A DNA stretch of 60,889 nt from positions 1 through 60,889 of IMG/VR virus record IMGVR_UViG_3300011439_000016; one strand, 5' to 3'. The position numbers were made by a program, and so were the translations under genes. Below are positions 1,960 through 54,643 of the stretch, in pieces. The DNA comes from a virus (taxonomy: Duplodnaviria; Caudoviricetes). Each line of letters begins with the position of its first letter. Position 1 is the first letter of the stretch. The notes under the pieces were generated by a model. The model searched no databases. It was not told the DNA's origin and worked only from the letters and a program-made list of their open reading frames with translations.

Positions 1960-1974
1960 TTAACCATTTCTTAG
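1960..1974 (+). promoter_or_regulatory. CtrA-type box (TTAA-N7-TTAG) upstream of internal virion protein operon
   Basis: ttaa ccatttc ttag; same spacer type as boxes at 42697, 51537, 54612. Confidence 0.6.
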
Positions 1975-2034
1975 CAATTTGCTGCCACCCTGACCGAGGC
2001 TGGAGAGGTCCAGCCGTTTCCGGGGTCTATCAGC

Positions 2035-4605
2035 ATGGCAGGTTCATCCTCTAGCCAAAGCACCGGTCACAGCGAAAGCCGCTCTGACACCTACATCCCG
2101 GAATATTCCGAGAGTCCGATCCTGCGCGAGATCGCCCAGCACGCCAGGCGGATGTCTGACGTCGTCTATCAATGGGGGATGGACACCTACAACAAGAACC
2201 AGGGCAACATCGACAGCTTGATGCGCGATGCGTTGAGCTACGCTTCACCGCAGCGCATCGCCGTCGACATGGGGATGGCGGAAGCCGGCGTGATGCAGGC
2301 CGGCGAACGCGGACGCTTGAGCGCGATCCGCGATTTGGAATCCTACGGCATCGATCCCTCAAGCGGGCGATATTACAACGAAGACGCATCCAACCGCGTG
2401 ATGACCGCAGCCGCCGCAGCGGGTGCCGGCAACCAGCAGCGCATGGCGTCCCAGGCCGCCGGCAACGCGATGCGCAACCAGGCGATCTCGGCCGGCCTGC
2501 AGAACGCGCAATTCGGTGTGGCTGCCGGCGAGAGCGCCAACCGCTATCTGCAGACCGCTTCGTCGCTGAAGTACCCGCCACTGGGCCGCACCTCGGAATC
2601 GACCAGCGATCAGCAGAGCACCAGCCAGAGCCAGTCGGGCGATGGTGGCGGCGGCAGCAAATCGCAGCAGCCGAAGGAAGAGAAGCCGCAGCAAGAGAAG
2701 CAGGGCGGCGGCGGCGGCGGGCAACCGCGGCAAGCTGCCGACCGTGGCGGGGGCGAGGGCAAGGAGCCGCCGGGTCAAAGACCACCGCCACCGCGGCCAG
2801 GACAGGGGCAGGAGCCGCCGCTCGACGTGGACACTGGCGCGGGCGCGCAGTCGTTCGACGAGGAAGGCTTTATCGATCGGTATCCCGGCTCCGAGGTGTT
2901 CGACAGCGAGCAGGAGCTGCCGCAGGAGTATCCGGGGTCGGAGGTATTCGACAGCGAGCAGGAGCTGCCGCAGGAGTATCCCGGTTCTGAGGTGTTCGAC
3001 AGCGAGCAGGAACTGCCCGGTAGCGAGGCTGTTGCTGACGACGGCACCATGGACCCCAATGCGGGTATCCCGCCATCCAACGAAGTCGCTGGTGAATACA
3101 ATCCGTATGGCGGCGACGAGAACGTGGCCCCAGGGGCGTTCGATCCGAGCACCGGAATACCGACCAGCCAGTACGGCGAAGACCCGGAAGCGCAGGTCGC
3201 CGAAGCCGACCCGGCAGGCGCCGTGTACGGGTTGGGCGACGACGGCGGCTGGAGCAGCGACATCGTGCCGGCCAGCTACGAGGCTCCGCAGTTCGGCGGC
3301 GACCAGACCTGGTCGGACATCGGCCAGGGCGCCACCACCGGCGAATTCGACTCCACGTACGACGCCTACACCGACGACGCCTACGGCGACCTCGGCACCC
3401 TGGACGTGCCTCTCGATGAAGGCGCCGGTGAGTGGGACGACACCGGCTACGGCGACGAGATCGATGCTGGGTACGGCGACTTCACCGACGATTTCTACGG
3501 TGACATCGGCGACTACGACGATTGGGGCGCCGACGAAAGCTACGACGACCCGTACGCCGGCTGGGGTGAGGAGGACTACTACGACGATTGGGGCGGCGAC
3601 GAGGAATACTACGACGAGGGCGACTACGGCGAGGACTACGGCGAGAGTTACGACGACCCGTACGCCGAATGGGGCGAGGACGACTACTACGAAGACGCCT
3701 ACGGCGACGAAGGCGGCGACTACGGCGAAGAAGACTACGACTACGGCGAAGAAGACTACGACTACGGCGAGGACACCGAAGACTACGGTGACTACGAAGA
3801 CACCGACTACAGCGACACCAGCGAATACTACGAGGACACCGACTACAGCGACACCAGCGGTGGCGGTGGCGACTACGACTACCAGGACGATGGCAGCGCC
3901 GAATACGAGGACGCTGGCGGCGACTATGGCGGCGACTACGCCCGTGGTGGCCCGGTCAAAGCAAGGAGACGAAACATGCAGCGCCCCGGTGGCCCGCGCC
4001 CCCCACGCCGCCCGATGACGGGCTATCGCCCGCGCCCGCCGATGCGGCGCCGGCCCCCGCCAGGAGGCGTGCCGGCCTTTGCGCGCGGCGGCTCGATGCC
4101 GCCCCCGCCTCCGGGTGCCGGGGTGCTTACCCCACCGCCGCCGCGACCCGGTGGCCGGATGCCAAGGCCGCAGCAGGCGCCGCGCCCACAGCGCGGTGCA
4201 CCGATGCCGGCACGGGGTGGACCGCGCCCCACTCCGATCGGTCGCGGGCCGCAGATGCCCGGTAATTTCATCTCGGCCAACGGCATGCCGGCCCCGACCA
4301 CCGGCGGGATGCAGCGCCCGCAGCGCATGGCCCGAGGCGGATCGGCAGGCCGGCGCCCGGAGCCGACCCAAGGCGGGTTCGTGTCACACTCGCTGTCGCC
4401 ATCCGGCGGATCGAAGGTCGACGACGTCAACGCGCGGCTGAACGCCGGCGAGTTCGTGATCCCGAAGGACGTAGCGCATTGGAAGGGCAAAGAATTCTTC
4501 TACAAAATGATCGCCCAGGCGCGGAAGAACCGGTCGGGGGGCGGGAAACCTGAACAGGCCCAAACCGGCTACAGCGGCGCGAGCGGCATGCCGGGGGGTA
4601 TGTGA
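2035..4605 (+). CDS. Internal virion (ejection) protein 1, low-complexity D/Y-rich and R/P-rich blocks
   Basis: 856 aa; C-terminal DDVNARLNAGEFVIP motif of the kind seen in phage internal/tape-measure-like proteins; ARGG motifs; position after tail genes. Confidence 0.65.
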   Translation: MAGSSSSQSTGHSESRSDTYIPEYSESPILREIAQHARRMSDVVYQWGMDTYNKNQGNIDSLMRDALSYASPQRIAVDMGMAEAGVMQAGERGRLSAIRDLESYGIDPSSGRYYNEDASNRVMTAAAAAGAGNQQRMASQAAGNAMRNQAISAGLQNAQFGVAAGESANRYLQTASSLKYPPLGRTSESTSDQQSTSQSQSGDGGGGSKSQQPKEEKPQQEKQGGGGGGQPRQAADRGGGEGKEPPGQRPPPPRPGQGQEPPLDVDTGAGAQSFDEEGFIDRYPGSEVFDSEQELPQEYPGSEVFDSEQELPQEYPGSEVFDSEQELPGSEAVADDGTMDPNAGIPPSNEVAGEYNPYGGDENVAPGAFDPSTGIPTSQYGEDPEAQVAEADPAGAVYGLGDDGGWSSDIVPASYEAPQFGGDQTWSDIGQGATTGEFDSTYDAYTDDAYGDLGTLDVPLDEGAGEWDDTGYGDEIDAGYGDFTDDFYGDIGDYDDWGADESYDDPYAGWGEEDYYDDWGGDEEYYDEGDYGEDYGESYDDPYAEWGEDDYYEDAYGDEGGDYGEEDYDYGEEDYDYGEDTEDYGDYEDTDYSDTSEYYEDTDYSDTSGGGGDYDYQDDGSAEYEDAGGDYGGDYARGGPVKARRRNMQRPGGPRPPRRPMTGYRPRPPMRRRPPPGGVPAFARGGSMPPPPPGAGVLTPPPPRPGGRMPRPQQAPRPQRGAPMPARGGPRPTPIGRGPQMPGNFISANGMPAPTTGGMQRPQRMARGGSAGRRPEPTQGGFVSHSLSPSGGSKVDDVNARLNAGEFVIPKDVAHWKGKEFFYKMIAQARKNRSGGGKPEQAQTGYSGASGMPGGM
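2881..3021 (+). repeat. 48-bp tandem repeat x about 3 (YPGSEVFDSEQELPQE)
   Basis: Directly visible in DNA and translation. Confidence 0.95.
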
Positions 4606-7600
4606 TGATAACCGGCTACGGTGGCCCAACCGGACCCGGCACCCCGCCGGGGATCCCCTCGATCGACGGCGCCAACAGCCCTGGCAGCGGCATCGAAGGC
4701 TCGAGCGGCGGTGACTTTGGCCCCGGCATCGGTTACGCGCGCGGCGGTCCAGTGCGCCGCAAGCCGCGCCCGAGGCCGCGCCGACGCCGGTTTCGGATGC
4801 CGCGCCGCGCGCTGGCGCAGCGCCCCGGCATGATGCGCCGCCGCCGGCCGCGCCCGATGCGGCCACGGCCGCCGGGGCAACGGCCGATGCGGCCACCGAT
4901 GCGGCAACGCCGCCGTCCAACCGGCTACGCCGAGGGGGGATCAGTCAACCCTATGCTGATGTCGGTGTCGCTCGACTCGCGGTCGAAGAACCCGATGCAT
5001 TACGCCGAGGACCGTGAGGCGTTAAGCGGACGGCCGGAGGGCGCCCCCGAGGCGCCCGACGCCTACGGCTATGAAGCCGGTGGCGAAGTGCTCGATGACG
5101 ACGATTGGGAGGATGACGCCGAGGTTGCGGAAGAACCTGCCCTGCCGGAGGAGCAGGTAGAGGCGGAAGAGGCTGAACTGCCAGAGGAACCCGACGAACC
5201 CGAAGCGCCTGATGAGGCCGTCACGCAAGCCAGGGGACCGGCTGCGGAAGAGGGTGAAGAACTGGAGGAAGACGAAGCCGGTGAAGGGGGGCGGGAAACC
5301 AGCCGGGGAGCACCAGCGGAAGAGGGAGACGAAGAAGGCGGGGGCGGTGCCGGCGACGAGCGGGCGCAGCGGACCGGGTATGGGCAGGCGGCTGAAGACG
5401 AAGACGAGCAGCAAGAGGCCCCGCCGGACGACACCGGCTTCGATCAGCAGGCACCCCGGACGCCGTCCACTCCGCTCACGGAGGTGCTCGACTACACCCG
5501 CAAGCAGCTGGGCGTCGGCCAGGAGCAGCAAGGCGCCCCCGCGCCCGCACAAGCAGCCGCAGCACCGGCACCGGCGCGCGATCAACTCGCTGACGCCAGC
5601 ATGGCCTCTGCACAAGCCGCGCCGTCCGGGGTCTCCGGCACCACCGGCGGTGATCAGACCGAAGCGGTTGCGGAACCGACGCTACCGGAGCCGCCAGCAA
5701 CGCCTGAAGCGCCCGCCCCGCAGGTGCCGGCACCGCCGCGCCAGACCGCTGCGTCCACACAGCCGTCAGGCACCCAGAGCGGTCCCGGCAACATGCAGGC
5801 GGTGCAGGACTACGTGTCCGGCAAGGGCGGCATGCCGCCGGAGCAGATGACGGAGCTGCTCGACCGCACCAACCAGACCAACCCGAGCCTCGGCCAGAAC
5901 GGCGCCATCCACCAGGCGTTCAAGAACCTGGTCGACAAAGGTGACATCGACACCGCGTCCAAGTTCGTGCAGGCGCTGCGGCCGTCGTACGACAGCGTGC
6001 GCGCGCTGATGATCGCCGCCACCGAACAGGGTGACTTCGCCGGCGCGATGCAGCTGGCCGAGAAGCTGAACAACCTGATCCCGAACGGCGACGAGACGAA
6101 ATTCACGCAAGGCCCGGACGGCAGGATCGTCGCGACCATCCAGCCTGATGACAAGCCAGCGACCCAGCACGCCCTGACGCCGGAGCAATTCAAGCGTTAC
6201 GCTAATTCGCCGCTCTCGCTGTTCGACCACACCGCCGAACAGGGGCTGGACACCAACTTCACCATGTTGACCGGGCAGCCGGGGCAACCGGTGCGGCAGG
6301 GCCGGACCCAAATGGCCAGCGCGAACGGCCCGATGCCGTCCGACAGCGGGCGGCTGACGATGAACGACGCTTCGCCGGTCGGCACCGGGTACCTGAACCC
6401 GGAAGGTCCGGGCACGCCGCCGCCGAACGCTCCACCGCCGGACCCGACGATCGCCCAGCGTATGAGCGGTCCGCCTGGTCCAGAACGAACCGCGCAGGCA
6501 GCACCTTTGACGAGCGGTGCGCCGTCCGCCTCGCCGACCCGGCAAGCGTCCGTGCCCGGTTACCAGCAGATGGCCGATCCGACCCAAGTCCGGCCGGAGC
6601 ACCGGGCCTACGAAGACCAACGCGCGCGGATGCGCACTGGGTACCATCACCAGCAGGAGCTGCCGCCACCGCAAACCGGTGGGGCGCCGCAGACCGCAGC
6701 GCCAGGCAACGGCCAACAGCCACCCCGCGTGATGGGCGTCGGTGCGAGCGAGCAGGCAAACCGGCGCGGCATCACGGTTCACCCGTCCGGCTACGACCCC
6801 TCGGGTGCTCCGGCCTTCAGCACCCGGCGCGTGCCGGGTTATGGCCCTGGGCTTCGGGAGCAAATGGGTGATCCGGCTTTCTCGGATCCCAACTACAAAT
6901 ACCCCGGCGGCCAGCAGCCGGTGTATCCATCGACGACACCCGGCGGACGTATTTCAGCCGAACACGCGGTCAGAGAACGGCAAGCGCAGCCGGATATCGG
7001 CGGACGGGCGAACAACCAGTACGGCGCCGGCCAAGCTGCACCCGCGTCTCCTGGCGTGCTGCCGGAAGTCATCGACTCCCGTGGCCGGGTTATTCACCGG
7101 GGCGGACAGCCGGCTTCAGACCAGCAGGCGCTGACGAACCAAAATCTGCAGCCAGCAGCCCAAGACTCGCCGGAGATACGCGCCTGGAAACTGGACATGC
7201 ATGCCTGGAAGGCCTTCCCGTACAGCAACCAGGACAAGGAGCGCGGGAAGTACCGGCAGGCGCTCGAGCTGCAGGAGCGCAAGGCGGAAGTCACGCGCGA
7301 AGGCAACCGATTCAAGCAGACACCGGAGCAGCGTGAGCAGATTGAACGTCTCAGGCAAGACGAAAACACCCGGCGCAACAGCGACCGCGTCCAGGCACAG
7401 CGTGACGCCAACTGGCTGACCAACGTCACCCGGATGCAGTCCGCTGCGGTGCAGGCCCAGGCTCGCGATCTGGCTTCCCGGCGCAGGGCCTGGTCGGAAG
7501 ATTTGAAGAACAGCGGCAAGCCGTTCCCGATGTCGGAGGAAGACACGATATTTATCGAGCGGTTGCGAACCCTCAATGCTCCAGGCGGCGTCGACTACAC

Positions 7601-7901
7601 CCGGCCGCAAACACCAGAACCGGGTGGACAGCGCGCGCCTGCACCGGCCGCGCCCGCACCAGCGCCGCAAACACCGGGTGCAAATGGAGCGACTCCTGCA
7701 GCGGCTCGACCGCAAGCCACGCCGGCTGCAACTCCGCAGCAACCGCCACCGTGGCCGGAAGGCACCGATCCGAAGACCTACCGTGGCGACACACCTCCGG
7801 GCGGCAAGCAATTCCCGCCGGACTCTCCGTGGGTATGGAGAACCAAGAAGTCGACCAAGGAATGGTCCATCCAGCCTAAGCAACCAGCACCGGCGCAATA
7901 G
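4602..7901 (+). CDS. Internal virion (ejection) protein 2
   Basis: 1099 aa, overlap-coupled, low-complexity, YARGGPV/YAEGGSV motifs. Confidence 0.6.
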   Translation: MMITGYGGPTGPGTPPGIPSIDGANSPGSGIEGSSGGDFGPGIGYARGGPVRRKPRPRPRRRRFRMPRRALAQRPGMMRRRRPRPMRPRPPGQRPMRPPMRQRRRPTGYAEGGSVNPMLMSVSLDSRSKNPMHYAEDREALSGRPEGAPEAPDAYGYEAGGEVLDDDDWEDDAEVAEEPALPEEQVEAEEAELPEEPDEPEAPDEAVTQARGPAAEEGEELEEDEAGEGGRETSRGAPAEEGDEEGGGGAGDERAQRTGYGQAAEDEDEQQEAPPDDTGFDQQAPRTPSTPLTEVLDYTRKQLGVGQEQQGAPAPAQAAAAPAPARDQLADASMASAQAAPSGVSGTTGGDQTEAVAEPTLPEPPATPEAPAPQVPAPPRQTAASTQPSGTQSGPGNMQAVQDYVSGKGGMPPEQMTELLDRTNQTNPSLGQNGAIHQAFKNLVDKGDIDTASKFVQALRPSYDSVRALMIAATEQGDFAGAMQLAEKLNNLIPNGDETKFTQGPDGRIVATIQPDDKPATQHALTPEQFKRYANSPLSLFDHTAEQGLDTNFTMLTGQPGQPVRQGRTQMASANGPMPSDSGRLTMNDASPVGTGYLNPEGPGTPPPNAPPPDPTIAQRMSGPPGPERTAQAAPLTSGAPSASPTRQASVPGYQQMADPTQVRPEHRAYEDQRARMRTGYHHQQELPPPQTGGAPQTAAPGNGQQPPRVMGVGASEQANRRGITVHPSGYDPSGAPAFSTRRVPGYGPGLREQMGDPAFSDPNYKYPGGQQPVYPSTTPGGRISAEHAVRERQAQPDIGGRANNQYGAGQAAPASPGVLPEVIDSRGRVIHRGGQPASDQQALTNQNLQPAAQDSPEIRAWKLDMHAWKAFPYSNQDKERGKYRQALELQERKAEVTREGNRFKQTPEQREQIERLRQDENTRRNSDRVQAQRDANWLTNVTRMQSAAVQAQARDLASRRRAWSEDLKNSGKPFPMSEEDTIFIERLRTLNAPGGVDYTRPQTPEPGGQRAPAPAAPAPAPQTPGANGATPAAARPQATPAATPQQPPPWPEGTDPKTYRGDTPPGGKQFPPDSPWVWRTKKSTKEWSIQPKQPAPAQ

Positions 7902-7903
7902 CC

Positions 7904-10900
7904 ATGGCTGACACCGGCTACAGGCCATACGGGGTGCGTTGGGACCGGCTGCCGCAGGCCACGAATATTGATGACCGGCGCGGACGTCCGATCGGCACAC
8001 CAGAACAACACGCAGCCATGCAGCGTGCTGCGGAGCGTTATTGGGCCGGAGAAATAAACGGCGCGGAATACACGAACATCGTCCAGCCCATCAGAGAAGC
8101 TTTTTACCACCAGCAGCACCCCACCGCGGTCGGCAGGGCCTGGGACACCGCAACTCGAAATCTCGATAAGGGGTGGACCGCCATTGACGATGCCACGCGC
8201 AGCTGGAGCACCCCACTGTCCAGAGACGCCGGCATCGACGACATCAACATCCGGCAACAAGAGGTTCCCGTCGACACCGCAACGCTATCCGACGGCATGA
8301 ATTCAGCTCCGTCGGATTACACCGGCGACTACGAGAGCGGCGACTTCAGCAGAGAAGAGTACAGCAGCCCTTACGAGCGCAGCACCCAAGGCTATGACGA
8401 AGCCGGATTCGAGGACGAGTCGGGTGCACCCAGCTACGACGAGGCCGGGTTCGAGGAAGATGAACCTGGTTACGAATACACGGAAGATCCACAGCAATAC
8501 ACAAACCCGGTCGAGCAATCGTCCTTCGACGAGACCGGATTCCAGGAAGAACTCGAGGCGTCGAGCTACGACGAGTCCGGGTTCGAGGATGCCGAGGGTT
8601 ACGCGGAAGGCGGCGAGGTCGAGGAGGATGAGTGGGAGACCTACGTAGATCCCCCGCAGCAATACGCCCAGTCGGCGGTCGGCACCGGGACGATGACGGA
8701 CGAAAGTCCCGAGCAGCCCGCGCCCAAACCCGCAGACGAGTGGGAGACCTACGTCGAGCCGCCCGAAGAAGCACCGCGCGTGCCGTCGATGTCGGATACC
8801 GGAGACGTGTGGTCGGGACAGGAAGCGCCCCCGCCCGTCCAGCGAGCCAGCGACAACGAGTGGCAGGACTACGTCGAACCCGACACCCCGCTGGGAGCGT
8901 TCAGTCGCGAGGTTGCTAAGGGCCTAGGTCCAGCAGCTGCTGGATCTGTTCTCGGCGCAGGGACCGGAGCCGCGCTTGGTGCCGCCGGATTCAACCCGGT
9001 CACCGTGGTCGGCGGCACCCTGATCGGGGGTGTTGCTGGCGGCTTCGGCGCCGAGGCACTGCAGGAAAAGGGCCTGCGGGCGTGGGGCGCGCAAGACGAT
9101 GCCGCGATCCGCCGCGCCAACGAGGAAGCCCATCCCTGGTCGACCTACGGCGGTAAAGCCATCTCCAACATCGCGGGCGGCGCTGCCGGTTTGGGCAAGG
9201 CCGCCATAACGACCGGTGCCAGGGTGCTTGGCGGCGGTATCGGCGCGGCCTGGGAAGCCGGCGTGCAGATGTACCATGGCCGGCCAGCCAAGGAGGCGCT
9301 CCCCGCGATCGCCTCCAGCGCCGTTGGCGGCGCGGTGTTCGCTGGAAAGCGCCCGTGGAGCCAGTGGGGAGAGACACAAGGAGCGAAGATCGGCGCCCGC
9401 TTCGCGCCAGCACCGCCGCCCGCACCCGCGCCGCCGATCCAACCCGCCGCGCCACCGCCGGATCAGGGGCAGCTGCCGTTCGGAGATACCCAAGCTCCCC
9501 CACATCTCCCCAAAGCAGGCGGGCCGCAGCAAGCCCAGATCGGTGGCGGCGAGGCGCAACCCGCGCTGCCGTTCGGTCAACCGGCACAGCCAGGTCGGCC
9601 GGGGGTCAGCCGGCAGCCGGAGCTGCCGCTTGAGCCACCGCCAACCGTCGATGCGCAAGGCCAGTACGGGCTGACGCTCAACGCGCCGCACCATGCCAGC
9701 CGGCACAGCCCGGACTCCACACCGGCTGGAGCCGGTAGCGCCAAGGAGCTGCCGCCGCCACGGGAGACCCAGTGGCCGGCGGTGCCGGACAGCGCGCGGC
9801 CCAGAGAACCGAACGCGCGTCCGCACAGCGCGGTCGGCGAAGGCCTAGCGCAGGAAGCCGCCGGTGTGGCGCCGCGCACGGCGGCCGGCATCCATGTCCT
9901 GCAGCCGGGGCAGATGGATCCGACGATCCAGGCCGGACTCAGGCAACCGACGGAAACCCTGCCGGTCCCCCCGCGCACGACGTTCGAACCGCCGCGCCCG
10001 CCATCACGTACGCCACCGGCACCGGTCGTGGAGCCGCTGCCGCGCAGCCGGTCACTGACGCACCCCAACACCAGGACGACGCAAGGCGTCACCGAACCAC
10101 CAGTCCCCGGCGGACACACCCGGATGTACCAGGGCCGCGGTCAGCCGCCGCGCGAGTTCTCGACCGATCGCGCAGTCGCGCAGCGGTACGGCCAGGTGAA
10201 ATACACCGACGTCAAGAACGACAGCATGCCGTTCTTCAAGCCCGGACGGCAGCAGGGACAGTACGTCACCGACAATCCGAACTTCCGGCAGCGGGCGCAG
10301 CCGGTCGGGCAGATCCAAACACAACCGCCAGGTGGGAGGAAAGCGGCGCCTGCGCCGGACGCAACCTCGCCCGCTGCCACTTCACCACCCGCTGGCGGCG
10401 CACCGCCCGTACCACGAATGTCCACGCCGGAGATCGACGCCGCGATCACGCGGGCGGTCGGACCGGGCGCGGCAGCTGCTCCAGCTGCGCCCGCGCGCCC
10501 CGCTGCGCCGCAAGCCCGCCAGGCCATCCTGACCACCAAGGCCGGCAAGCGCCCGGTGCGCGTCTCGCCCGACCCGCCGCGCAAAGGCAAGGACGGCCGC
10601 GAGTACCAGAAGGTCACCTACAAGGGGAAAGACTACTTCGTCCCGGCCGAACAGCTGACCATGAAGCCGCCGCCGAAGACCGACGCCGCGCGACGGGAGG
10701 AGTCGTTCAAAATCCTGGCGGACATAGACGCCAGAAAGAAAGCTGGTCAGGGGCTGCCGGAGCATCCGGCAGAACCGTCCGCCGACATGAGCTTCATCGG
10801 GCGCGAGGCGCTGGCGATCGCCAAAAAGATCGAGGCAACCGGACAACCGGACGCCAAGAGTTTTGTCGCCGGCATGCGCGCCGCAGCACACACCAACCGG

Positions 10901-42166: not shown

Positions 42167-42169
42167 AAA

Positions 42170-42673: not shown

Positions 42674-42696
42674 TCGGTCACCGTACTCCCGATAGC

Positions 42697-42711: not shown

Positions 42712-42734
42712 GAAATTTACCCTTTGATGGGTGA

Positions 42735-45044: not shown

Positions 45045-45053
45045 GAGAGCGCG

Positions 45054-45245: not shown

Positions 45246-45261
45246 CCCAAGGAGAAGACCA

Positions 45262-45462
45262 ATGGCTTCGTTCTACGTTACCGCGCGCAAGACCTCGCCG
45301 ATCACGCCTGTCACCGTCGAGGCCGAGAGCCGCGAGCTGGCGATCCAGCAAGTTCTGGACACCAAAGGTGAGGGCGAGGAAATCGAAGTCCTGCAGTGCA
45401 CCGAAGTGCTAGCAGAGCCGCCCACGGCTCCGGTCACTGCTTCCAAAGCCGAGAAAAAGTAA
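45262..45462 (+). CDS. Small paralog B (MASFYVTARKTSP...)
   Basis: RBS AAGGAG. Confidence 0.75.
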   Translation: MASFYVTARKTSPITPVTVEAESRELAIQQVLDTKGEGEEIEVLQCTEVLAEPPTAPVTASKAEKK

Positions 45463-45473
45463 GGAACAGGCCA

Positions 45474-45662
45474 ATGCCGGTATTTCGAGTAAAGTCCCGC
45501 AAGATCGGGCCGGTTACGCTTGGCGATGTCGAGGCCGACTCGCGCGAGCACGCCATCAACCTGGCGCTCGAGCGTGCCGGCGAGGGTGAGTCGATCGAAG
45601 TGCTGGACGCCCAGCAGCTGACGCCTGACATGGTCGATGTCGGTGAAACCAGGAAAAAATGA
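45474..45662 (+). CDS. Small paralog C (MPVFRVKSRKIGP...)
   Basis: RBS AAGGA; VEADSRE.AI...GEGE.IEVL shared. Confidence 0.75.
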   Translation: MPVFRVKSRKIGPVTLGDVEADSREHAINLALERAGEGESIEVLDAQQLTPDMVDVGETRKK

Positions 45663-48384: not shown

Positions 48385-49582
48385 CTGGCGGGTGGCACAT
48401 TCGCTGGAAAAGCTGCGCTCGCAGATCAACACGGCACGCCCCAAACGATCCAAGTCGAGCGACGGCTCGATCGGTGACGCCGCCCACGCCTCGAGGTCCA
48501 GCGATCACAATCCGTGGATTTCAGACGGCACCATGGGCGTGGTGTCGGCGATCGATCTTACTCACGATCCGAAAGGGGGGTTCGACAGCTATGCATGCGC
48601 GGAAATGTTGCGCACCAAGAAGGACAAGCGGATCAAGTACGTCATCAGTAATAAGCGGATCTTCAGCTCGACCACGCAGCCTTGGGTCTGGCGCGCTTAT
48701 ACGGGGTCGAATCCACATTCACAGCATGTCCACGTTAGCGTTATGTCGACCAAGTCGCAGTTCGACAACGTGGCGGAATGGGATCTGGGCGATCTGTTCA
48801 GCGGTGAAGCCCCGACTGGGCCGCCGACGGTGGAGACACCGATCCTGCGCCGCGGCGACAAGGGGCCGGACGTCGCGGCGTTGCAGGCGATGCTGGGGAT
48901 CGAAGATGACGGCTACTTCGGACCCGACACTGAGGCGGCTGTTACGCTATTTCAGCGCCAGCGCGGGCTGGAAGCCGACGGCATTGTCGGTGGCTACACC
49001 TGGGCCGAACTGGAGAAGCAGTCGGAGTCGCCAGAGCCGATCAACAACCAGGTGATGACCAACATCGTCTGCACCATGTTCGGTGGGTCGGCCGACCCGA
49101 ACACCTCGGCCTACGACGAGAATCACGTCATTTCCGATGCCGAACTGGGATGCGCGCTGCCGTACCGCTTCCCAGGCGCGCGGCCCAAGGTGAAGATCAC
49201 CAACCGAGCCAACGACAAGGTGGTGGTCTGCGACATCGTCGATGTCGGGCCGTGGAACATCAACGACAATTACTGGACGCTGCCGAAGGGCCGCCCCCAG
49301 GCCGAAACCGGCTGGGACATGAAGGGCCGCAAGACCAATCTGGCCGGCATCGACATCACGCCAGCGGCCAACAAGGCGATCGCGCTGAACGGCTTCGGCC
49401 GGGTCGATTGGGAATTCCAGCAGCCGCCCGACGGCACGGTGCCGGCACCGGACTACGACACGATGGCGCGTGCGGTTGAAGAGGTGGCGAAATGCTCTAA
49501 GGCGGTTGCTGATGCTTCAGCTGCCCTAGCGTCAGCGACTGCTGCACTTAACGAGATATTGGCAGCAGTCAGTAAGCCGTAA
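48377..49582 (+). CDS. Multidomain endolysin (Zn-peptidase-like + PG-binding + RlpA-like double-psi beta-barrel)
   Basis: SDHNP...AID...HxxHVHVS; LRRGDKG...DGYFGPDT...DGIVG; DVGPW...IDITPA. Confidence 0.8.
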   Translation: MADWRVAHSLEKLRSQINTARPKRSKSSDGSIGDAAHASRSSDHNPWISDGTMGVVSAIDLTHDPKGGFDSYACAEMLRTKKDKRIKYVISNKRIFSSTTQPWVWRAYTGSNPHSQHVHVSVMSTKSQFDNVAEWDLGDLFSGEAPTGPPTVETPILRRGDKGPDVAALQAMLGIEDDGYFGPDTEAAVTLFQRQRGLEADGIVGGYTWAELEKQSESPEPINNQVMTNIVCTMFGGSADPNTSAYDENHVISDAELGCALPYRFPGARPKVKITNRANDKVVVCDIVDVGPWNINDNYWTLPKGRPQAETGWDMKGRKTNLAGIDITPAANKAIALNGFGRVDWEFQQPPDGTVPAPDYDTMARAVEEVAKCSKAVADASAALASATAALNEILAAVSKP

Positions 49583-49933
49583 ATGGCGCCGATGAAGGCG
49601 ACGGTCGAGGAGACGTCGAAGCAGGTCGGCGTCTTCATGTCCATTATGAAGGACCAGCCGCTCAGTCTCGCGCTGGTCCTGATGAACTTTCTGCTGATGT
49701 TTTTCTTGTTTTACTCAGGGTCCGGGCGCAAAGACACGGTTAACATGATTGTAAAATGGCAGCAGGAAACCGATAAGCTGATGGCGTCGTGCGTCAGCGT
49801 CGACGTGATGAAGCTCGTGTTGGACTCGTCGCAGAAGGTCATCGAAGCTGAGAACACGATGCGCAAGCTCTTGCTGGAGCACGACAAGACCAGGGCCGGC
49901 ACGCCGCGAGAGGCACCGGAAACCGCTAGGTAA
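49583..49933 (+). CDS. Membrane protein, possible holin/spanin-like lysis accessory
   Basis: One TM helix; directly after endolysin. Confidence 0.5.
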   Translation: MAPMKATVEETSKQVGVFMSIMKDQPLSLALVLMNFLLMFFLFYSGSGRKDTVNMIVKWQQETDKLMASCVSVDVMKLVLDSSQKVIEAENTMRKLLLEHDKTRAGTPREAPETAR

Positions 49934-49944
49934 GGAGCAGTGAC

Positions 49945-50151
49945 ATGGCTGACGATGTTGAACAGATCAAAGTTCTGATGACTAAGGGGTTCGAGGAGGC
50001 GTTTATGAAGTCAATCGTGAATCTTTTTGGGGTTTACAGCGCCAACGTGGGGGTTACCGAGGGCCAGGCGGAACGCACCAAAAAGGGCATCGAAAACTCG
50101 GTCGAGGCGTATAGACTGGCTATGGAAGCTGTAAATTCATGGGATGGGTGA
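49945..50151 (+). CDS. Hypothetical protein
   Basis: RBS AAGGAG. Confidence 0.7.
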   Translation: MADDVEQIKVLMTKGFEEAFMKSIVNLFGVYSANVGVTEGQAERTKKGIENSVEAYRLAMEAVNSWDG

Positions 50152-50726
50152 TGTTGGATCATTCTGCAAGCAGCGGGCAGCACTCTTACAAAGATCGTGG
50201 GCCGGACTGCTACGAGACGCCGCCGGAGGCGGTGCACGCGCTGCAGAAGGTCGAGCATTTGCCGCCCAGGATCTGGGAGCCGGCATGCGGACCCGGCAGC
50301 ATCGTGAAGGTGTTACGTGCTGTTGGGCACGAGGTTTATGCGTCGGACTTGCATGCTTACGATGAGGCCCACGCCCAGCTGGATTTTTTGAAGGTTAAGT
50401 TTGAAGTCGATTTTCCGGGCGTGATTTTGACCAACCCGCCGTATCAGCACGCCCAGGCGTTCGTCGAGAAGGCGCTCGAGCTGTGTCCGAAGGTAATCAT
50501 GCTGCTTCGGCTGGCATTCCTTGAAAGCAACAAACGAACCAAAATCCTCGAGCAAAGCGGTTTGGTCCGCGTTCACGTTTTCCGTAACCGGCTGCCGATG
50601 ATGCACAGGAGGGGTTGGAATGGACCAAAAGCCAGCAGTGCCATCCCGTTCGCCTGGTTCGTCTGGGAACGGGGTTACAAAGGACCAATCGCCCTCGATC
50701 GAATTTCGTGGGAGCCATCCCCGTAG
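50151..50726 (+). CDS. SAM-dependent DNA amino-methyltransferase
   Basis: YETP, WEPACGPG, NPPY, LLRLAFLES, FAWFVW. Confidence 0.85.
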   Translation: MLDHSASSGQHSYKDRGPDCYETPPEAVHALQKVEHLPPRIWEPACGPGSIVKVLRAVGHEVYASDLHAYDEAHAQLDFLKVKFEVDFPGVILTNPPYQHAQAFVEKALELCPKVIMLLRLAFLESNKRTKILEQSGLVRVHVFRNRLPMMHRRGWNGPKASSAIPFAWFVWERGYKGPIALDRISWEPSP

Positions 50727-50808
50727 GATGAGCCGCGAAGCCAGCCGGCATTACCCGTATAACCGGCTGTATTATTACTACCGGGGACGGAAACACTAGG
50801 AGGCTGTC

Positions 50809-50979
50809 ATGGGCTTTGGGCTGATCTTCTGGATTCTGATGCTGCTGTGGCTGGTGTACAGCGCGTGGGGCTGGTGGGCGCCGGGTCAGCCGAATTGGAT
50901 CTACGGCAACAGCGCATTCCTGTTCATTCTGTTTCTGCTGATCGGATGGCGGGTGTTTGGAGCACCAGTTCATCCATGA
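50809..50979 (+). CDS. Small two-TM membrane protein (holin candidate), 56 aa
   Basis: Read manually; RBS AGGAGG; MGFGLIFWILMLLWLV...FLFILFLLIGW. Confidence 0.7.
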   Translation: MGFGLIFWILMLLWLVYSAWGWWAPGQPNWIYGNSAFLFILFLLIGWRVFGAPVHP

Positions 50980-50989
50980 GGCGTGACGT

Positions 50990-51277
50990 TTGATTGCGTA
51001 TCCATCTTTGATCGTGCCGCCCAGCGCGTTCACGGTGTTGGGCAACGAATTGTTGCCCGAGACTTTGCCGGACGGCGCGGCGGTATTCCGCATGCAGCTA
51101 GCCTGCACCTGCGGCAAGCACCCGTATATTTGCGTTGTCGTAGACGATGTTGCCGCGTTTAAGCGTGTGGCGTTCTGGCAGGAGCTTTGGAAGCATATGT
51201 ACGCGCACGAAAAGGCGGAATGCCAGCGCGAGGGTAGGGAGTTCACTCCCGATCTGGCATGGGAGCCGCTGCCGTGA
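50990..51277 (+). CDS. Hypothetical protein
   Basis: ORF track; TTG start. Confidence 0.5.
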   Translation: MIAYPSLIVPPSAFTVLGNELLPETLPDGAAVFRMQLACTCGKHPYICVVVDDVAAFKRVAFWQELWKHMYAHEKAECQREGREFTPDLAWEPLP

Positions 51278-51540
51278 ACGACATTCTGGACGACCTGCGC
51301 GACTTGTATCTGCAGGCGACCACCGAACGCAGCCACTACTACGTTGCCGGTGTCGTCGAGCGAGCGATCGCGGAAATCGAGCGTTTGCGCGGGTTGCGCG
51401 GGCCGTATTTTACCAAGGTGCAGTGGTTTGACCTGCCACTGGCGCTTCGGAAGCGGTGGTGGGAGGAGACCGGATACGGCAGCGCGGTGCCGTCCCCCGA
51501 ATTGCTGGCAACAATTAAAGCCGCCCTCAAACACACTTAA
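51274..51540 (+). CDS. Hypothetical protein
   Basis: GTGA-coupled; AIAEIERLR. Confidence 0.6.
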   Translation: MNDILDDLRDLYLQATTERSHYYVAGVVERAIAEIERLRGLRGPYFTKVQWFDLPLALRKRWWEETGYGSAVPSPELLATIKAALKHT

Positions 51541-51568
51541 CATTTCCTTAAGAATTAGCGGCTAGCCT
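51537..51568 (+). promoter_or_regulatory. CtrA-type box + GCTAGCCT -10-like element (head operon promoter)
   Basis: ttaa catttcc ttaa N9 gctagcct. Confidence 0.75.
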
Positions 51569-51604: not shown

Positions 51605-51832
51605 ATGGTCGCGCCGACGAAGACCAAAGAAGCCCAGCACAACGTGACGTTCGCCGAGGGCGGCGACACCGCGATGTTCGGCAAGCAATCTGCAGGCCCG
51701 GACAAGCCCGGTAACACCGGTAAAGACACATCCGCAGCGCCTGGCCCGAAGTACGCGGCCGGCGGCTCGCACAAGATGTTCGGCTTTAACGGGTCGCAGC
51801 CCGCCAAGGCAGGCCAGACAGGCGCACGCTGA
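51605..51832 (+). CDS. Small Gly-rich head-module protein (FAEGG, YAAGG)
   Basis: RBS AGGAGG. Confidence 0.75.
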   Translation: MVAPTKTKEAQHNVTFAEGGDTAMFGKQSAGPDKPGNTGKDTSAAPGPKYAAGGSHKMFGFNGSQPAKAGQTGAR

Positions 51833-52053
51833 TGCCTCCTCGCATGGGCCAACCGTTGCGGTCGATGCGCCGGGTGTCGGGTCCGAAGCCTAAGCCGATG
51901 GACCCGTCCAAGGCGGTGCTGGCTGCGCCTCGCATCAAGGCCACCAGCACGCGCGAATACGGCAAGGGCGGCACGCCGTACTCCGGCGGCCCGGATGTGG
52001 GCGTCCGCGGTGCCGGGATCGGCTACGGAGGGTATGACCCCAATGTTTCATAG
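51832..52053 (+). CDS. Small basic hypothetical protein
   Basis: TGATG coupling. Confidence 0.6.
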   Translation: MPPRMGQPLRSMRRVSGPKPKPMDPSKAVLAAPRIKATSTREYGKGGTPYSGGPDVGVRGAGIGYGGYDPNVS

Positions 52054-52318
52054 CAAGCCATTCAAGAAGGACATCACGCCGTTCGCCAAGGGCGGCAAGG
52101 TGGTCAAGCACATCGGCAAGGGCGCGCGCGAGCAAACGCGCAGCTCCGGCGGGTACGAGACGCTGACCGGCGCCGACACGCTGGCGCGGGCGGCAAACAA
52201 TTATCCGAAGTCAGCGCCGGAGGCCCCGGCGGCGCCGGCGCCACCGGTTCCGATGGGTTCGCGCGGTGGCAGTGCTCCAACCGCGATGATGCCCCCGTCG
52301 ATCGGGGAGGAAGAGTGA
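52043..52318 (+). CDS. Small head-module protein (FAKGGKV)
   Basis: RBS GGAGG. Confidence 0.65.
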   Translation: MFHSKPFKKDITPFAKGGKVVKHIGKGAREQTRSSGGYETLTGADTLARAANNYPKSAPEAPAAPAPPVPMGSRGGSAPTAMMPPSIGEEE

Positions 52319-52527
52319 ATTCGACCGATAATCTGAAGACCAAAGCTCGTTTTCTACGGAATGCTGCACCACGGGCTTACGACGATTTTTTCGGTGCTTT
52401 CGCTGAGTACACCGCGAACACGATCGATGTTTTGACCGAAGTGACCGAGAACCTGTCGCTGTATCAGGGCCATGCGCAGCAGTGCAAAAAACTCATGAAA
52501 GTGCTCGAGGAGGTTAAAAATGGTTGA
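52315..52527 (+). CDS. Hypothetical protein
   Basis: Coupled; YQGHAQ motif typical upstream of scaffold genes. Confidence 0.7.
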   Translation: MNSTDNLKTKARFLRNAAPRAYDDFFGAFAEYTANTIDVLTEVTENLSLYQGHAQQCKKLMKVLEEVKNG

Positions 52528-53551
52528 CGTCGTCGTCGATCAGGTGCCCAAGGAAAAGCTGCCGTACGACCCCAACGACATCCCCGAGGCTGTCAGGAAG
52601 CGGGTCGCGCAGGTCGAATCCCTGTACACGCCGTCGGGTGATCCGCCGGCTCCACCCCCCACCCTTGAGTCTCCCCCGCAGGCGCAGGCAACGCCGGCCT
52701 CGCCCTCCGTTGCGCCGGCGGTACCTCCCGCTCCTGCCGCGCCTGCGGACTTAACCGACGAGAACGATCTGACGTGGAAGACCCGGTTCCTGGCGATGCA
52801 GGGGCGCTACGCCGCAACCCAGAAGACGATCGGCGAGATGCAGGAGCAGATGTCGCAGCTGGGCAACGAGCTGATGCACGCCCAGCAACAGAAGCCGCCG
52901 CAACCCAAACAGCGCCGGCAAGCGCAGAACTATCTGACCGATCAGGACGTCGAGAACTACGGACCCGAGCTGGTCGACCTGACCCAGCGCGCCGCGCTGC
53001 AGGCGGTGCAGCCGCAGATCCAAGAGGTCGAGCAGCAGAACGCCGCGCTGCGCAAGCAGCTCGCGATCGAAGCACGACGCCGGATGGACCAGGCTGTCGA
53101 GTTGGGCGTGCCGAACTACAAAGAGATCGATCGCAATCCGCGCTGGCACCGCTGGCTGTTGGGCGTTGACGTTTTGTCTGGACGTGTTAGACAGCAGTTG
53201 TTGAACGACGCTATCTCCGGCGGCTCTGCCCCCAGAGTGATATCGTTCTTCAAAGGCTTCCTCCAGGAGGAAGCAGCTACGGGTCACATCGAGCCAGCGC
53301 AGCAAGCCCCGGCAACAAGCGTTCCCAGGGAAGCGGCGGTACCACTGGCCTCTTTGGCGGCTCCTGGCAGGGCAAGGCCGGCGACTGGTGGCGACACCGG
53401 GGTGCCGCCCGACAAACCCATTTACACACGCGCTCAGATCGCGCAGCTGTATCGTATGCACCAAAAAGGTGCGTACACCGGCCGTGAGGCCGAGTGGGCA
53501 CGTCAAGACGCCGATATCATTGCAGCTGGTCGAGAAGGGCGCATCCGGTAA
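52520..53551 (+). CDS. Capsid scaffolding protein
   Basis: Pro-rich N-terminus, coiled coil, ends IIAAGREGRIR; precedes MCP. Confidence 0.75.
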   Translation: MVDVVVDQVPKEKLPYDPNDIPEAVRKRVAQVESLYTPSGDPPAPPPTLESPPQAQATPASPSVAPAVPPAPAAPADLTDENDLTWKTRFLAMQGRYAATQKTIGEMQEQMSQLGNELMHAQQQKPPQPKQRRQAQNYLTDQDVENYGPELVDLTQRAALQAVQPQIQEVEQQNAALRKQLAIEARRRMDQAVELGVPNYKEIDRNPRWHRWLLGVDVLSGRVRQQLLNDAISGGSAPRVISFFKGFLQEEAATGHIEPAQQAPATSVPREAAVPLASLAAPGRARPATGGDTGVPPDKPIYTRAQIAQLYRMHQKGAYTGREAEWARQDADIIAAGREGRIR

Positions 53552-53607
53552 CCGGGGGCTGCTCGATCGCGAACGCGCGGTAGTCCCCAAGCACAAGGGG
53601 CTATCAG

Positions 53608-54615
53608 ATGCCTGTTCCAACCGCTGGTTATCCCATTGCAACAGTGGGATCGACGACGCCGCTGACGCCTGTCGGCTCGACGGCCAATACCCTCCAAGCG
53701 ACCGGATTTATCCCGGAAATTTGGAGCGCGAAAATGGTCGAGAAGTTCTACGCCTCCACCGTCCTGTCGGCGATCTCCAACACCGACTATGAGGGCGAAA
53801 TCCAGAACATGGGCGATCGGGTCAAGATCCGAACCAAGCCCACCATCACCATCAAGGACTACCAGGCCGACGGTCTGCTTGGCCTCGACCGCCCGTCCGG
53901 CGGCTCGATCGAGCTGTACATCGGCATCGGCAAGTACTTCTCGCTGATCCTCGACGACGTGATGGAGATCCAGAGCGATCTCAATCTGCTCTCGATGTGG
54001 TCGGACGACGCGGCGCAGCAACTCAAGATCACGGTCGATCGCGATGTGCTGGGCGGCCTGGTCGGCGGCGCGCACGCCAAGAACAAGGGTGCGACGGCTG
54101 GTCTGATCTCCGGCAACCTCAACCTCGGCATCAAGGGCACCCCGGTGACGGTGGTGAAGGCGGCGCCGACGGCGGGTCAGGCGGACATCCTGGAAGTGCT
54201 GCTCCGTCTCGGCCAGTGCATGGACGAGCAGAACATCCCGGAAACCGGGCGTTGGGTGGTCATGTCGGCTGCTCTCGGGCGCTACCTCAAGCAGTCCGAG
54301 TTGAGGCAGGCTTACCTGTCCGGCGATCCGGTCTCGATGCTGCGCAACGGCCGGCTGGGCATGGTGGATCGGTTCACGATCTACATTTCCAACCTGCTGC
54401 CGTCTGCAGCGACCGACGCGACCAACTTCGCAGCCGGCGAGCAGCCGGTGTTTGCCGGACACGCGCACGGACTGACGTTCGCCTCGCAGATCTCCAAGGT
54501 GGAGACGCTGCGCAGCGAGCTGACCTTCGGGCAGATTTTGCGTGGCTTGCAGGTCTACGGTTACCAGATCGTCGACCCGACGGCGCTCTGCGAAGCCAAG
54601 GTCATTTTGGCTTAA
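53608..54615 (+). CDS. Major capsid protein
   Basis: FIPEIWS...NTDYEGEI..GDRVKI; RGLQVYG; P22-coat-like podoviral MCP motifs. Confidence 0.93.
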   Translation: MPVPTAGYPIATVGSTTPLTPVGSTANTLQATGFIPEIWSAKMVEKFYASTVLSAISNTDYEGEIQNMGDRVKIRTKPTITIKDYQADGLLGLDRPSGGSIELYIGIGKYFSLILDDVMEIQSDLNLLSMWSDDAAQQLKITVDRDVLGGLVGGAHAKNKGATAGLISGNLNLGIKGTPVTVVKAAPTAGQADILEVLLRLGQCMDEQNIPETGRWVVMSAALGRYLKQSELRQAYLSGDPVSMLRNGRLGMVDRFTIYISNLLPSAATDATNFAAGEQPVFAGHAHGLTFASQISKVETLRSELTFGQILRGLQVYGYQIVDPTALCEAKVILA

Positions 54616-54643
54616 CCATTCCTTAAGAATCGACCCCTAGACT
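54612..54643 (+). promoter_or_regulatory. CtrA-type box + CCTAGACT -10-like element (neck/tail operon promoter)
   Basis: ttaa ccattcc ttaa N9 cctagact. Confidence 0.75.

What the first reader, a model, noticed from the sequence alone, without database searches (positions are those of the whole stretch)
1960..54643. CtrA-type TTAA-N7-TTAA boxes mark the late (virion) operon starts
Seen: ttaa-ccatttc-ttag (1960), ttaa-cgattcc-ttaa (42697), ttaa-catttcc-ttaa (51537), ttaa-ccattcc-ttaa (54612). All are intergenic, have near-identical spacers and precede the ejection, portal/terminase, head and neck/tail operons. Two are followed 9 nt later by GCTAGCCT/CCTAGACT. Established: TTAA-N7-TTAA is the site of the alphaproteobacterial cell-cycle regulator CtrA, and it overlaps the -35 region of activated promoters. 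Inference: late transcription is gated by host CtrA~P or by the phage's own CtrA-like protein, which also implies an alphaproteobacterial host.
Basis: partly seen in the sequence, partly recalled or inferred. Interest (0 to 1): 0.85.

Follow-up and report, generated by a model that had tools for sequence, protein, structure and literature searches.

The report
CtrA-type boxes at phage late promoters
An uncultured relative of Rhizobium phages starts each of its virion-gene operons from a promoter built around the binding motif of the alphaproteobacterial cell-cycle regulator CtrA, and it also carries its own truncated regulator of the same protein family, so it is not yet clear whether host or phage switches these genes on.

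Summary
The window holds four oriented boxes of the form CTTAAC-N5-CTTAAG (TTAA-N7-TTAA; the 1960 copy ends in TTAG). Shuffled sequence gives about none. Each box lies 11 nt upstream of a -10-like hexamer and ahead of a virion operon.

The 42697 box sits exactly midway between two divergent ATGs, portal and terS-like. This implies two leaderless transcripts from one box.

The boxes are conserved at the same places in uncultured relatives. Thirty of 31 loci with MCP at least 78% identical have a perfect box just after the MCP gene. A box with at most one mismatch lies before the portal gene in 13 of 14 complete genomes.

The protein at 38421 is an OmpR/PhoB-type winged helix without a receiver domain, so it is not a CtrA orthologue. 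All 13 complete relatives searched carry it. Rhizobium phage RHph_TM3_14A has neither the protein nor the boxes.

The promoter reading is strong. The identity of the activator is open: I put host CtrA~P at about 0.45 and the phage protein at about 0.35. CtrA sites in alphaproteobacterial phages are already published (Mascolo 2022), but not at late operons. I rate this a new variant of a known kind.

The parts
1960..1974 (+). Box 1, TTAACCATTTCTTAG (one mismatch), promoter of the 2035-14986 operon of large virion proteins
   Evidence: 29.7 bits. The same TTAG variant with a similar downstream GCTG(C/T)CACC(C/T)TG lies before the orthologue in G001, and a TTAG variant with a different downstream sequence lies before the orthologue in G002.
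1986..1991 (+). Predicted -10 hexamer CACCCT, 11 nt after box 1
   Evidence: Read. Prediction only; no transcription start is mapped.
2035..14986 (+). Operon of three large proteins (856, 1099 and 2360 aa), putative internal or ejection proteins
   Evidence: phrog_8003, virion structural protein, 3.7e-22, for the first protein. No Pfam match for the two larger proteins.
38421..38927 (+). Gene of a 168-aa regulator (P0001): N-terminal three-helix domain, conserved DWPPG linker, C-terminal OmpR/PhoB-type winged helix, no receiver domain
   Evidence: Pfam PF00486, 4.2e-7. AF2 model with pLDDT 83. Foldseek best matches are the AdeR, SaeR, ArlR and PhoB DNA-binding domains, all with E above 0.07. 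Present in all 13 of the 13 complete relatives searched.
40148..42673 (-). Leftward packaging operon: terS-like gene 42170-42673, two small ORFs, large terminase 40148-41605
   Evidence: phrog_2, 2.9e-22; phrog_36773, 1.2e-14.
42680..42685 (-). Predicted -10 hexamer TACGGT (read on the - strand), 11 nt from box 2 and 6 nt before the terS-like ATG at 42673
   Evidence: Read. The same layout occurs in G002.
42697..42711 (+). Box 2, TTAACGATTCCTTAA, shared by the divergent portal and packaging promoters; its centre (42704) is 31 nt from each ATG
   Evidence: In G002 the box is a near-palindrome, CTTAAGAATTTCTTAAG. A box with at most one mismatch lies before the portal gene in 13 of 14 genomes.
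42723..42728 (+). Predicted -10 hexamer TTTGAT, 11 nt after box 2 and 6 nt before the portal ATG at 42735 (implies a leaderless mRNA)
   Evidence: Read. G001 has TAACCA and G002 has TAACCC, each with 7 nt before the ATG.
42735..51540 (+). Portal operon: portal, glycosyltransferase-like protein, endolysin-domain protein and small ORFs
51537..51551 (+). Box 3, TTAACATTTCCTTAA, promoter of the head operon
   Evidence: 31.9 bits. A perfect box lies 1.8-3.6 kb upstream of the MCP gene in 28 of 48 relatives' loci that reach that far.
51563..51568 (+). Predicted -10 hexamer TAGCCT (inside GCTAGCCT)
51605..54615 (+). Head operon, small ORFs, scaffold-like protein 52520-53551 and MCP 53608-54615
   Evidence: phrog_267, 2.7e-50.
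54612..54626 (+). Box 4, TTAACCATTCCTTAA, overlapping the MCP stop codon; promoter of the neck/tail operon
   Evidence: 35.3 bits. Thirty of 31 relatives with MCP at least 78% identical have a perfect box within 1.1 kb after the MCP gene, 20 of them at the stop codon.
54638..54643 (+). Predicted -10 hexamer TAGACT (inside CCTAGACT)
54671..60889 (+). Neck/tail operon (structural proteins, collagen-like tail fibre 56179-57186); runs off the window end

Best explanation
The four boxes are the activator sites of the phage's late promoters.

Each promoter has three parts:
- a 22-bp tandem repeat, CTTAAsmATTw twice, which contains TTAA-N7-TTAA;
- a -10 hexamer of the TAnnnT type placed 11 nt downstream;
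- no usable -35 hexamer.

Host sigma-70 RNA polymerase therefore needs a protein bound to the box, at a predicted -38 to -24, to start transcription. This is how class-II activators of the OmpR/PhoB family work.

I take host CtrA~P as the most likely reader of the box. Under this reading, virion-gene transcription depends on the CtrA state of the infected alphaproteobacterial cell.

Box 42697 serves two divergent promoters at once. It sits 31 nt from each ATG, so both the portal and the packaging transcripts would be leaderless.

Shown: the boxes, their orientation, the fixed spacing to -10-like hexamers, their positions before the virion operons, and their conservation.

Inferred: the transcription starts, the activation itself, and the identity of the activator.
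For: - The motif is far above chance.
- The consensus of 42 distinct promoter sequences from relatives is gCTTAACcaTTTCTTAAGAATTnncccCTAGgCTCC. Information is concentrated in the two TTAA cores and in the TA of the -10.
- The boxes are conserved at orthologous places.
- The core equals the published CtrA consensus, and the first half equals the published ungapped CtrA variant TTAACCAT (PMC6180460, passages; PMC11527210, passages).
- Published CtrA full motifs that activate have their 5' base near -35, and at -39 for ctrA P2 (PMC4287350, passages).
- A single CtrA site activating two divergent promoters is documented in Rhodobacter sphaeroides (PMC6180460).
- Leaderless AUG-initiated mRNAs are documented in Sinorhizobium meliloti, 171 of them (PMC3616915, passages).
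- Host CtrA binding to and regulating phage promoters is documented, including in two Rhizobium podophages (PMC9437464, abstract and sections 20 and 22).
- The TTAA cores stay constant while the putative recognition helix of the phage protein changes: RTIDVHICNIRRRL in the window, KTIDVHMYWLRQRM in G002 (whose boxes are nearly identical), and KMVDVMICKLRKKL in the sister clade. A conserved host reader fits this better.
Against: - Nothing here shows binding, and no transcription start was mapped (one search gave only fragments).
- Host CtrA is present before infection. Alone, it gives no obvious delay for late genes.
- The phage keeps an OmpR/PhoB-type DNA-binding protein in every complete relative searched (13 of 13). 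The relative that lacks the boxes, RHph_TM3_14A, also lacks that protein.
- The spacer (TTTC) and the 3' flank (GAATT) are conserved beyond what the published TTAA-N7-TTAA consensus requires.
- The host is unknown.
- G008 keeps the protein but has only one box with at most one mismatch in 63.7 kb.
Confidence: 0.45

Rival explanations
1. The phage's own receiver-less winged-helix protein (38421-38927) is the late activator. It is made from the rightward 36.4-39.7 kb block. It binds the tandem TTAA repeats without needing phosphorylation and recruits RNA polymerase. Late transcription would then be timed by the phage rather than by the host cell cycle. Host CtrA might bind the same boxes as well.
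For: - The C-terminal domain is an OmpR/PhoB effector domain. By recall, this family binds direct repeats one helical turn apart and activates from the -35 position.
- The protein and the boxes occur together: 13 of 13 complete relatives carry the protein, and RHph_TM3_14A has neither.
- Orthologues in the sister clade rank the NCBIfam CtrA model first in 3 of 4 cases.
- TTAA-N7-TTAA is enriched around the gene in 80 loci: 71 copies against 13 for the control AATT-N7-AATT.
- A phage-encoded activator gives the usual early-to-late delay.
- The family is large: 162 clusters at 50% identity with E up to 1e-30.
Against: - The window's copy is no closer to CtrA than to other regulators: PhoB 4e-6, CtrA 0.019. 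Of 23 family members, 20 match a PhoB model, 19 match TctD and 12 match CtrA.
- The recognition helix varies at central positions (C/F/Y and N/R/K/H/W) while the TTAA cores do not change.
- G008 keeps the protein but has almost no boxes.
- Two cultured phages with distant OmpR-like proteins, RHph_X2_30 and RDJL3, have no perfect box.
Confidence: 0.35
2. The boxes are promoter-linked operators where binding represses or delays rather than activates. One version: the phage protein competes with CtrA at the box to hold late genes back. Another: a different host factor reads the box.
For: - CtrA sites can repress as well as activate (PMC11264516, passages; PMC4287350).
- The box overlaps the region where a -35 hexamer would lie.
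Against: - No usable -35 hexamer is present, so an unassisted promoter would be weak.
- The box does not overlap the -10, which is the published position of CtrA repression.
Confidence: 0.1
3. The boxes are not transcription signals at all. They might be packaging or recombination sites, or simply inherited sequence.
For: None specific. They are short AT-rich islands in a genome of 61% G+C.
Against: - All four have one orientation matching the downstream genes, and a fixed distance to a -10-like hexamer and to start codons.
- The sequence between box and -10 is free to vary while both elements are kept.
- The boxes recur at four separate operon starts and in genomes with only about 62-66% portal protein identity (tblastn; box table).
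Confidence: 0.05

Closest known systems
CtrA 'full-motif' activated promoters of Caulobacter and other Alphaproteobacteria (fliQ, ccrM, ctrA P2; R. sphaeroides fliL2p-fliF2p)
   Same: The TTAA-N7-TTAA core and the TTAACCAT first half are the same. The motif overlaps the -35 region, with its 5' base at a predicted -38 against the published -39 for ctrA P2. One site serves divergent promoters.
   Different: - These are phage virion operons, not cell-cycle or flagellar genes.
- The boxes are closer to the ideal than many host sites and carry extra conserved spacer and flank positions.
- Binding is untested.
CtrA-binding-site clusters in alphaproteobacterial phages ('lytic deferment', Mascolo et al. 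2022, PMC9437464)
   Same: These are phages of Alphaproteobacteria, including Rhizobium podophages, that carry functional CtrA sites in promoter regions.
   Different: - There, many sites are packed into one region (terminal repeats or a gap region) upstream of genes of unknown function.
- Here, a single site sits at each of four dispersed late promoters ahead of named virion genes, and the phage also encodes its own OmpR-type protein.
- The passages I read do not mention late or structural operons as targets ('late gene' occurs 0 times).
- The supplementary tables listing the phages analysed could not be seen.
PhoB/OmpR-type class-II activation (pho box in place of the -35 hexamer)
   Same: A tandem direct repeat with an 11-bp period lies about 10 nt upstream of the -10, and there is no -35 hexamer (recalled, not from a call).
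   Different: The repeat sequence is TTAA-type, not a pho box. The candidate phage activator lacks a receiver domain.
Phage-encoded late activators (for example RinA of staphylococcal phages, seen only as a search listing; Mu C and P2 Ogr, recalled)
   Same: A small phage DNA-binding protein encoded outside the late region, and late promoters that share one operator placed before terS or the portal gene.
   Different: The fold differs (OmpR/PhoB winged helix plus an N-terminal three-helix domain). The operator is identical to a host master-regulator site.

Membership tests
CtrA-activated full-motif promoter | TTAA-N7-TTAA motif | tested here: met
   Three perfect copies and one with a single mismatch.
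CtrA-activated full-motif promoter | Motif overlaps the -35 region, with its 5' base about -35 to -39 from the transcription start | tested here: inconclusive
   The predicted position is -38, counted from the -10-like hexamers. No start was mapped, and the RNA run held only fragments.
CtrA-activated full-motif promoter | Bound and activated by CtrA~P | not testable with these tools
   Needs EMSA, footprinting or reporter assays.
CtrA-activated full-motif promoter | Host encodes CtrA (an alphaproteobacterium) | tested here: inconclusive
   The host is unknown. The nearest cultured phages infect Rhizobium at 64% MCP identity. No prophage copy of the regulator was found in 185,579 species genomes.
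CtrA response regulator (for protein 38421-38927) | N-terminal receiver domain with a phospho-acceptor Asp | tested here: not met
   The protein is 168 aa. Pfam finds only Trans_reg_C at residues 90-147. In the AF2 model the N-terminus is a three-helix bundle at residues 7-44.
CtrA response regulator (for protein 38421-38927) | Scores above the NCBIfam CtrA equivalog cut-off | tested here: not met
   14.7 bits against a cut-off of 350, and the best model is PhoB. Sister-clade orthologues reach 26-35 bits, with CtrA first in 3 of 4.
OmpR/PhoB-type effector (winged-helix) domain | Trans_reg_C domain with recognition helix and wing | tested here: met
   PF00486 at 30.4 bits, above the cut-off of 26.2. 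The model shows helix 116-133 and a hairpin at 137-147. Foldseek probability is 1.00 to the AdeR, SaeR and ArlR DNA-binding domains, though E is above 0.07.
Phages with clustered CtrA sites (low positional entropy, Mascolo 2022) | CtrA sites concentrated in one genomic region | tested here: not met
   The four sites are dispersed at 1960, 42697, 51537 and 54612. Entropy was not computed. Relative G009 does show a cluster at 42.7-44.7 kb.

The most novel reading that the evidence does not exclude
This phage family captured a CtrA-type DNA-binding domain, dropped the receiver, and uses it as a phosphorylation-independent CtrA mimic. The mimic fires all virion operons from perfect CtrA boxes and could also mis-fire the host CtrA regulon.

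The window also has a 4-kb early region packed with GANTC, the CcrM methylation site. Taken together, the phage's early-to-late programme might copy the order of the host cell-cycle circuit: methylation/GcrA first, then CtrA.
Probability: 0.3. Interest if true: 0.8.

Novelty: new variant of a known kind. Interest (0 to 1): 0.6.

Why it matters
If host CtrA drives all virion operons, particle production in a large family of uncultured soil and sediment phages would be coupled to the host cell cycle. One search found 451 MCP relatives in IMG/VR. That would extend 'lytic deferment' from a few genes of unknown function to the whole late programme.

If the phage protein is the activator instead, it defines a large uncharacterised family of late regulators (162 clusters at 50% identity) that reads a host master-regulator site. 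That would be a ready tool and a possible route of host take-over.

Either way, the promoters are compact, well defined and directly testable. They include a symmetric bidirectional leaderless pair.

Tried and rejected
- **Box 36136.** I rejected it as a member of the class. It is a palindromic hairpin followed by a T-run on the - strand.
- **A first misreading, later corrected.** I first concluded that the sister clade lacks boxes: the clade-A matrix gave 0 hits in G008 and G003. Inspection at orthologous promoters showed one-mismatch boxes with other spacers.
- **A phage-encoded RNA polymerase reading a long conserved promoter.** There is no Pfam match in the 2360-aa or 1099-aa proteins. Conservation is bipartite with a free spacer.
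- **Either half-site acting as a -35 hexamer.** The spacings to the -10 would be about 10 and 21 nt (read). These are too short and too long.
- **Obtaining a real CtrA sequence for direct comparison.** This failed. The PDB searches listed no CtrA chain. The word-index search returned only phage proteins. The profile search of 1.84 billion representatives returned only family members among its best 150. The control genomes give no loci. My statement that the sister-clade helix resembles the CtrA helix is therefore recall, plus the NCBIfam ranks.
- **Covariation between helix variants and half-sites.** None was seen.
- **RNA evidence.** One metatranscriptome run (X24) held only eight short pieces, mostly inside the MCP gene. 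It gives no start or end information.
- **Leader hairpins after the -10 elements.** They are not more stable than shuffles (z from -0.35 to -0.86).
- **tRNA and Rfam scans of the window.** Both were empty.
- **Protein Atlas.** It added only that the family is viral.
- **Scan of 185,579 species genomes for the regulator.** It found one unrelated actinobacterial OmpR-type hit. No host could be named.
- **Literature.** Searches for prior description of CtrA boxes at phage late operons and for the RHph_TM3_14A group (0 papers) found nothing beyond Mascolo 2022.

Full report
**What is in the sequence**

- Perfect TTAA-N7-TTAA occurs 4 times against 0.05 expected.
- The 20-nt consensus CTTAACNNTTYCTTAAGAAT with up to 3 mismatches finds only the four sites against 0.01 expected.
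- A weight matrix trained on 42 distinct promoter sequences from relatives, not the window, gives exactly four hits of at least 20 bits against none in 100 shuffles.
- TTAA is itself under-represented in the window, 68 against about 93.

One perfect match, at 36136, is a different thing. It is the centre of a palindromic terminator-like hairpin.

**Anatomy of the promoters**

Each box is really a tandem repeat with an 11-bp period: CTTAAC-c-ATT-t followed by CTTAAG-a-ATT-a. Eleven nucleotides after the second TTAA lies a hexamer of the TAnnnT type:

| Box | Hexamer | Coordinates |
|---|---|---|
| 51537 | TAGCCT | 51563-51568 |
| 54612 | TAGACT | 54638-54643 |
| 1960 | CACCCT | 1986-1991 |
| 42697 | TTTGAT | 42723-42728 |

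Neither half-site sits where a -35 hexamer should. The gaps to the -10 are about 10 and 21 nt. The architecture is therefore that of a promoter that needs a bound activator in place of -35 recognition. With the -10 at -12 to -7, the box spans -38 to -24.

Box 42697 lies between the portal gene (ATG at 42735, + strand) and a terS-like gene (ATG at 42673, - strand). On the - strand a second hexamer, TACGGT (42685-42680), lies 11 nt from the box. Each hexamer is followed by 6 nt and then the ATG. The box centre (42704) is 31 nt from both start codons. Both mRNAs would thus be leaderless.

In relative G002 the box at this place is a near-palindrome, CTTAAGAATTTCTTAAG, with the same two-sided layout. 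In G001 the portal side is kept.

The boxes at 51537 and 54612 overlap the stop codons of the preceding + strand genes. They are followed by leaders of about 20-30 nt with Shine-Dalgarno sequences.

The genes downstream are virion genes by PHROG and Pfam. The label 'ejection' for 2035-14986 is inference from size and position.

**Conservation**

The nearest cultured phages are the Rhizobium phage RHph_TM3_14A group, with 64% MCP identity. IMG/VR holds 451 MCP relatives, of which the best 80 loci were fetched. These hold 79 perfect boxes in 924 kb.

- Of 31 loci with MCP at least 78% identical and enough downstream DNA, 30 have a perfect box within 1.1 kb after the MCP gene, 20 of them at the stop codon.
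- Of 40 loci below 78%, only 2 do.
- A perfect box lies 1.8-3.6 kb upstream of the MCP gene in 28 of 48 loci that reach that far.

I also compared 14 complete genomes: the window plus G001-G013, with portal proteins 62-84% identical to the window's. A box with at most one mismatch lies within the 160 nt examined at:

| Place | Genomes with a box |
|---|---|
| Portal start | 13 of 14 |
| First head gene | 10 of 14 |
| First large virion gene | 7 of 14 (an undercount; G005 has one that the extrapolated start missed) |
| After the MCP gene | 11 of 14 |

Only 0.3-5% of 160-nt bins hold such a box genome-wide. In the sister clade the second half-site is often TTAG and the spacers differ (GGAGTTT, GTAGTTT). 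The -10-like hexamer keeps its 11-12 nt distance.

RHph_TM3_14A has no such boxes: 4 one-mismatch matches in the whole genome against 12 for the reversed control, none near its portal, terminase or capsid genes.

**The phage's own regulator**

ORF 38421-38927 encodes a 168-aa protein with a Pfam Trans_reg_C domain at residues 90-147 (4.2e-7).

An AlphaFold2 model (pLDDT 83) shows:
- a three-helix N-terminal domain (residues 7-44);
- a disordered linker holding the family-invariant D-W-P of the conserved DWPPG motif;
- a C-terminal winged helix, with recognition helix 116-133 and wing 137-147;
- a final helix.

Foldseek ranks OmpR/PhoB-family DNA-binding domains first (AdeR, SaeR, ArlR, PhoB), though with E above 0.07 for the two-domain query.

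There is no receiver domain, so this is not a CtrA orthologue. Its best NCBIfam model is PhoB (4e-6), with CtrA at 0.019. Orthologues in the sister clade rank the CtrA model first in 3 of 4 cases, with E from 1.6e-8 to 3.7e-6. Over 23 family members, 20 match a PhoB model, 19 TctD and 12 CtrA.

All 13 of the 13 complete IMG/VR relatives searched carry the protein. It is absent from one 87%-complete contig and from RHph_TM3_14A. It is not found in prophage form in 185,579 species genomes. The family is large in metagenomes, with 162 clusters at 50% identity at E up to 1e-30.

**Who reads the box?**

The data do not decide.

For host CtrA:
- The box is an ideal CtrA site, including the published TTAACCAT variant.
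- The geometry equals that of published activating full motifs.
- One site for divergent promoters has a CtrA precedent.
- CtrA control of phage promoters is established.
- The TTAA cores do not change while central positions of the phage protein's recognition helix do.

For the phage protein:
- It belongs to the right structural family.
- It co-occurs with the boxes.
- It sits outside the late region.
- It would supply the temporal delay that a pre-existing host factor does not.

I give 0.45 to host CtrA as the activator, 0.35 to the phage protein, and the rest to mixed or other schemes.

**Comparison with what is known**

Mascolo et al. 2022 (PMC9437464; I read the abstract, sections 20 and 22, and passages) describe dense clusters of CtrA sites in terminal repeats or gap regions, upstream of genes of unknown function. 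Their examples include Rhizobium phages Pasto and Palo.

Here the pattern differs. There is one near-ideal site per late promoter, at four dispersed operon starts ahead of named virion genes, together with a family-wide phage-encoded OmpR-type protein. My searches found no description of this arrangement.

I therefore rate it a new variant of a known kind, with an interest of 0.6.

Noticed in passing
window 34001-38000: GANTC, the CcrM methylation site, is under-represented overall: 145 copies against about 208 in shuffles. Yet 45 of the 145 lie in this 4-kb early or regulatory region, 11 per kb against 1.8 per kb elsewhere. Part of this comes from a repeated 13-mer, GTTCGA(G/A)TCCTT, present in 5 copies, that looks like the ribosome-binding region of - strand genes.
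   Followed up: partly
G005-G007 and G009-G013 (whole contigs, loci L117-L120 and L130-L157): Eight sister-clade genomes of about 66 kb hold only 0-3 GANTC sites each. G003, G004 and G008 hold 29-58, and the window, G001 and G002 hold 144-165. This is near-total avoidance in one clade. It may reflect a GANTC-specific restriction system or methylation-sensitive regulation in their hosts.
   Followed up: partly
window 36117-36154: A palindromic hairpin, GCAAAAAACCGGGCGTTAA / TTAACGCCCGGTTAATTGC, which holds a perfect TTAA-N7-TTAA. With the T-run on the - strand it looks like a terminator between two leftward genes, not a CtrA-type promoter.
   Followed up: yes
G009 42700-44700 (locus L119): A cluster of seven box-like matrix hits of at least 9 bits (three are perfect TTAA-N7-TTAA boxes scored on both strands) lies 1-3 kb upstream of the regulator gene. 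One abuts three tandem AAATGTCC units, which look like iterons. This resembles the clustered pattern of Mascolo 2022 and might mark an origin or an early control region.
   Followed up: no
sister-clade loci, just after the MCP gene (e.g. L042, L049, L053): After the MCP gene, a one-mismatch box (TAAA-N7-TTAA) is followed by a G+C-rich hairpin with a T-tail. The loop of the hairpin carries the -10-like TAATGC. Terminator and promoter therefore overlap.
   Followed up: partly
window 38075-38420: A 350-nt stretch with no convincing ORF lies upstream of the regulator gene. It holds an AT-rich block (38050-38200), a C/G homopolymer hairpin (37985-38015) and a T-arm-like GGTTCGAGTCC at 38316-38326 (coordinates read). 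ARAGORN and Rfam find nothing.
   Followed up: partly
window, whole: CTAG is strongly avoided, 54 copies against about 205 in shuffles. Yet two of the late -10 regions use it (GCTAGCCT, CCTAGACT), and the relatives' consensus is CTAGGCT.
   Followed up: no
window 50497-51543: A 348-aa - strand ORF overlaps + strand ORFs (50139-50726, 51259-51540), and its nominal ATG lies inside box 51537. G002 has a 34% match to its C-terminal half and a 67% match to + ORF 50139-50726. The - ORF is probably an antisense artefact, but this was not settled.
   Followed up: partly
window 53637-54379 and 45586-45736: A freshwater-sediment metatranscriptome run (X24) holds five short contigs with no mismatches to the window here. 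This is compatible with MCP expression or with carried-over DNA.
   Followed up: yes
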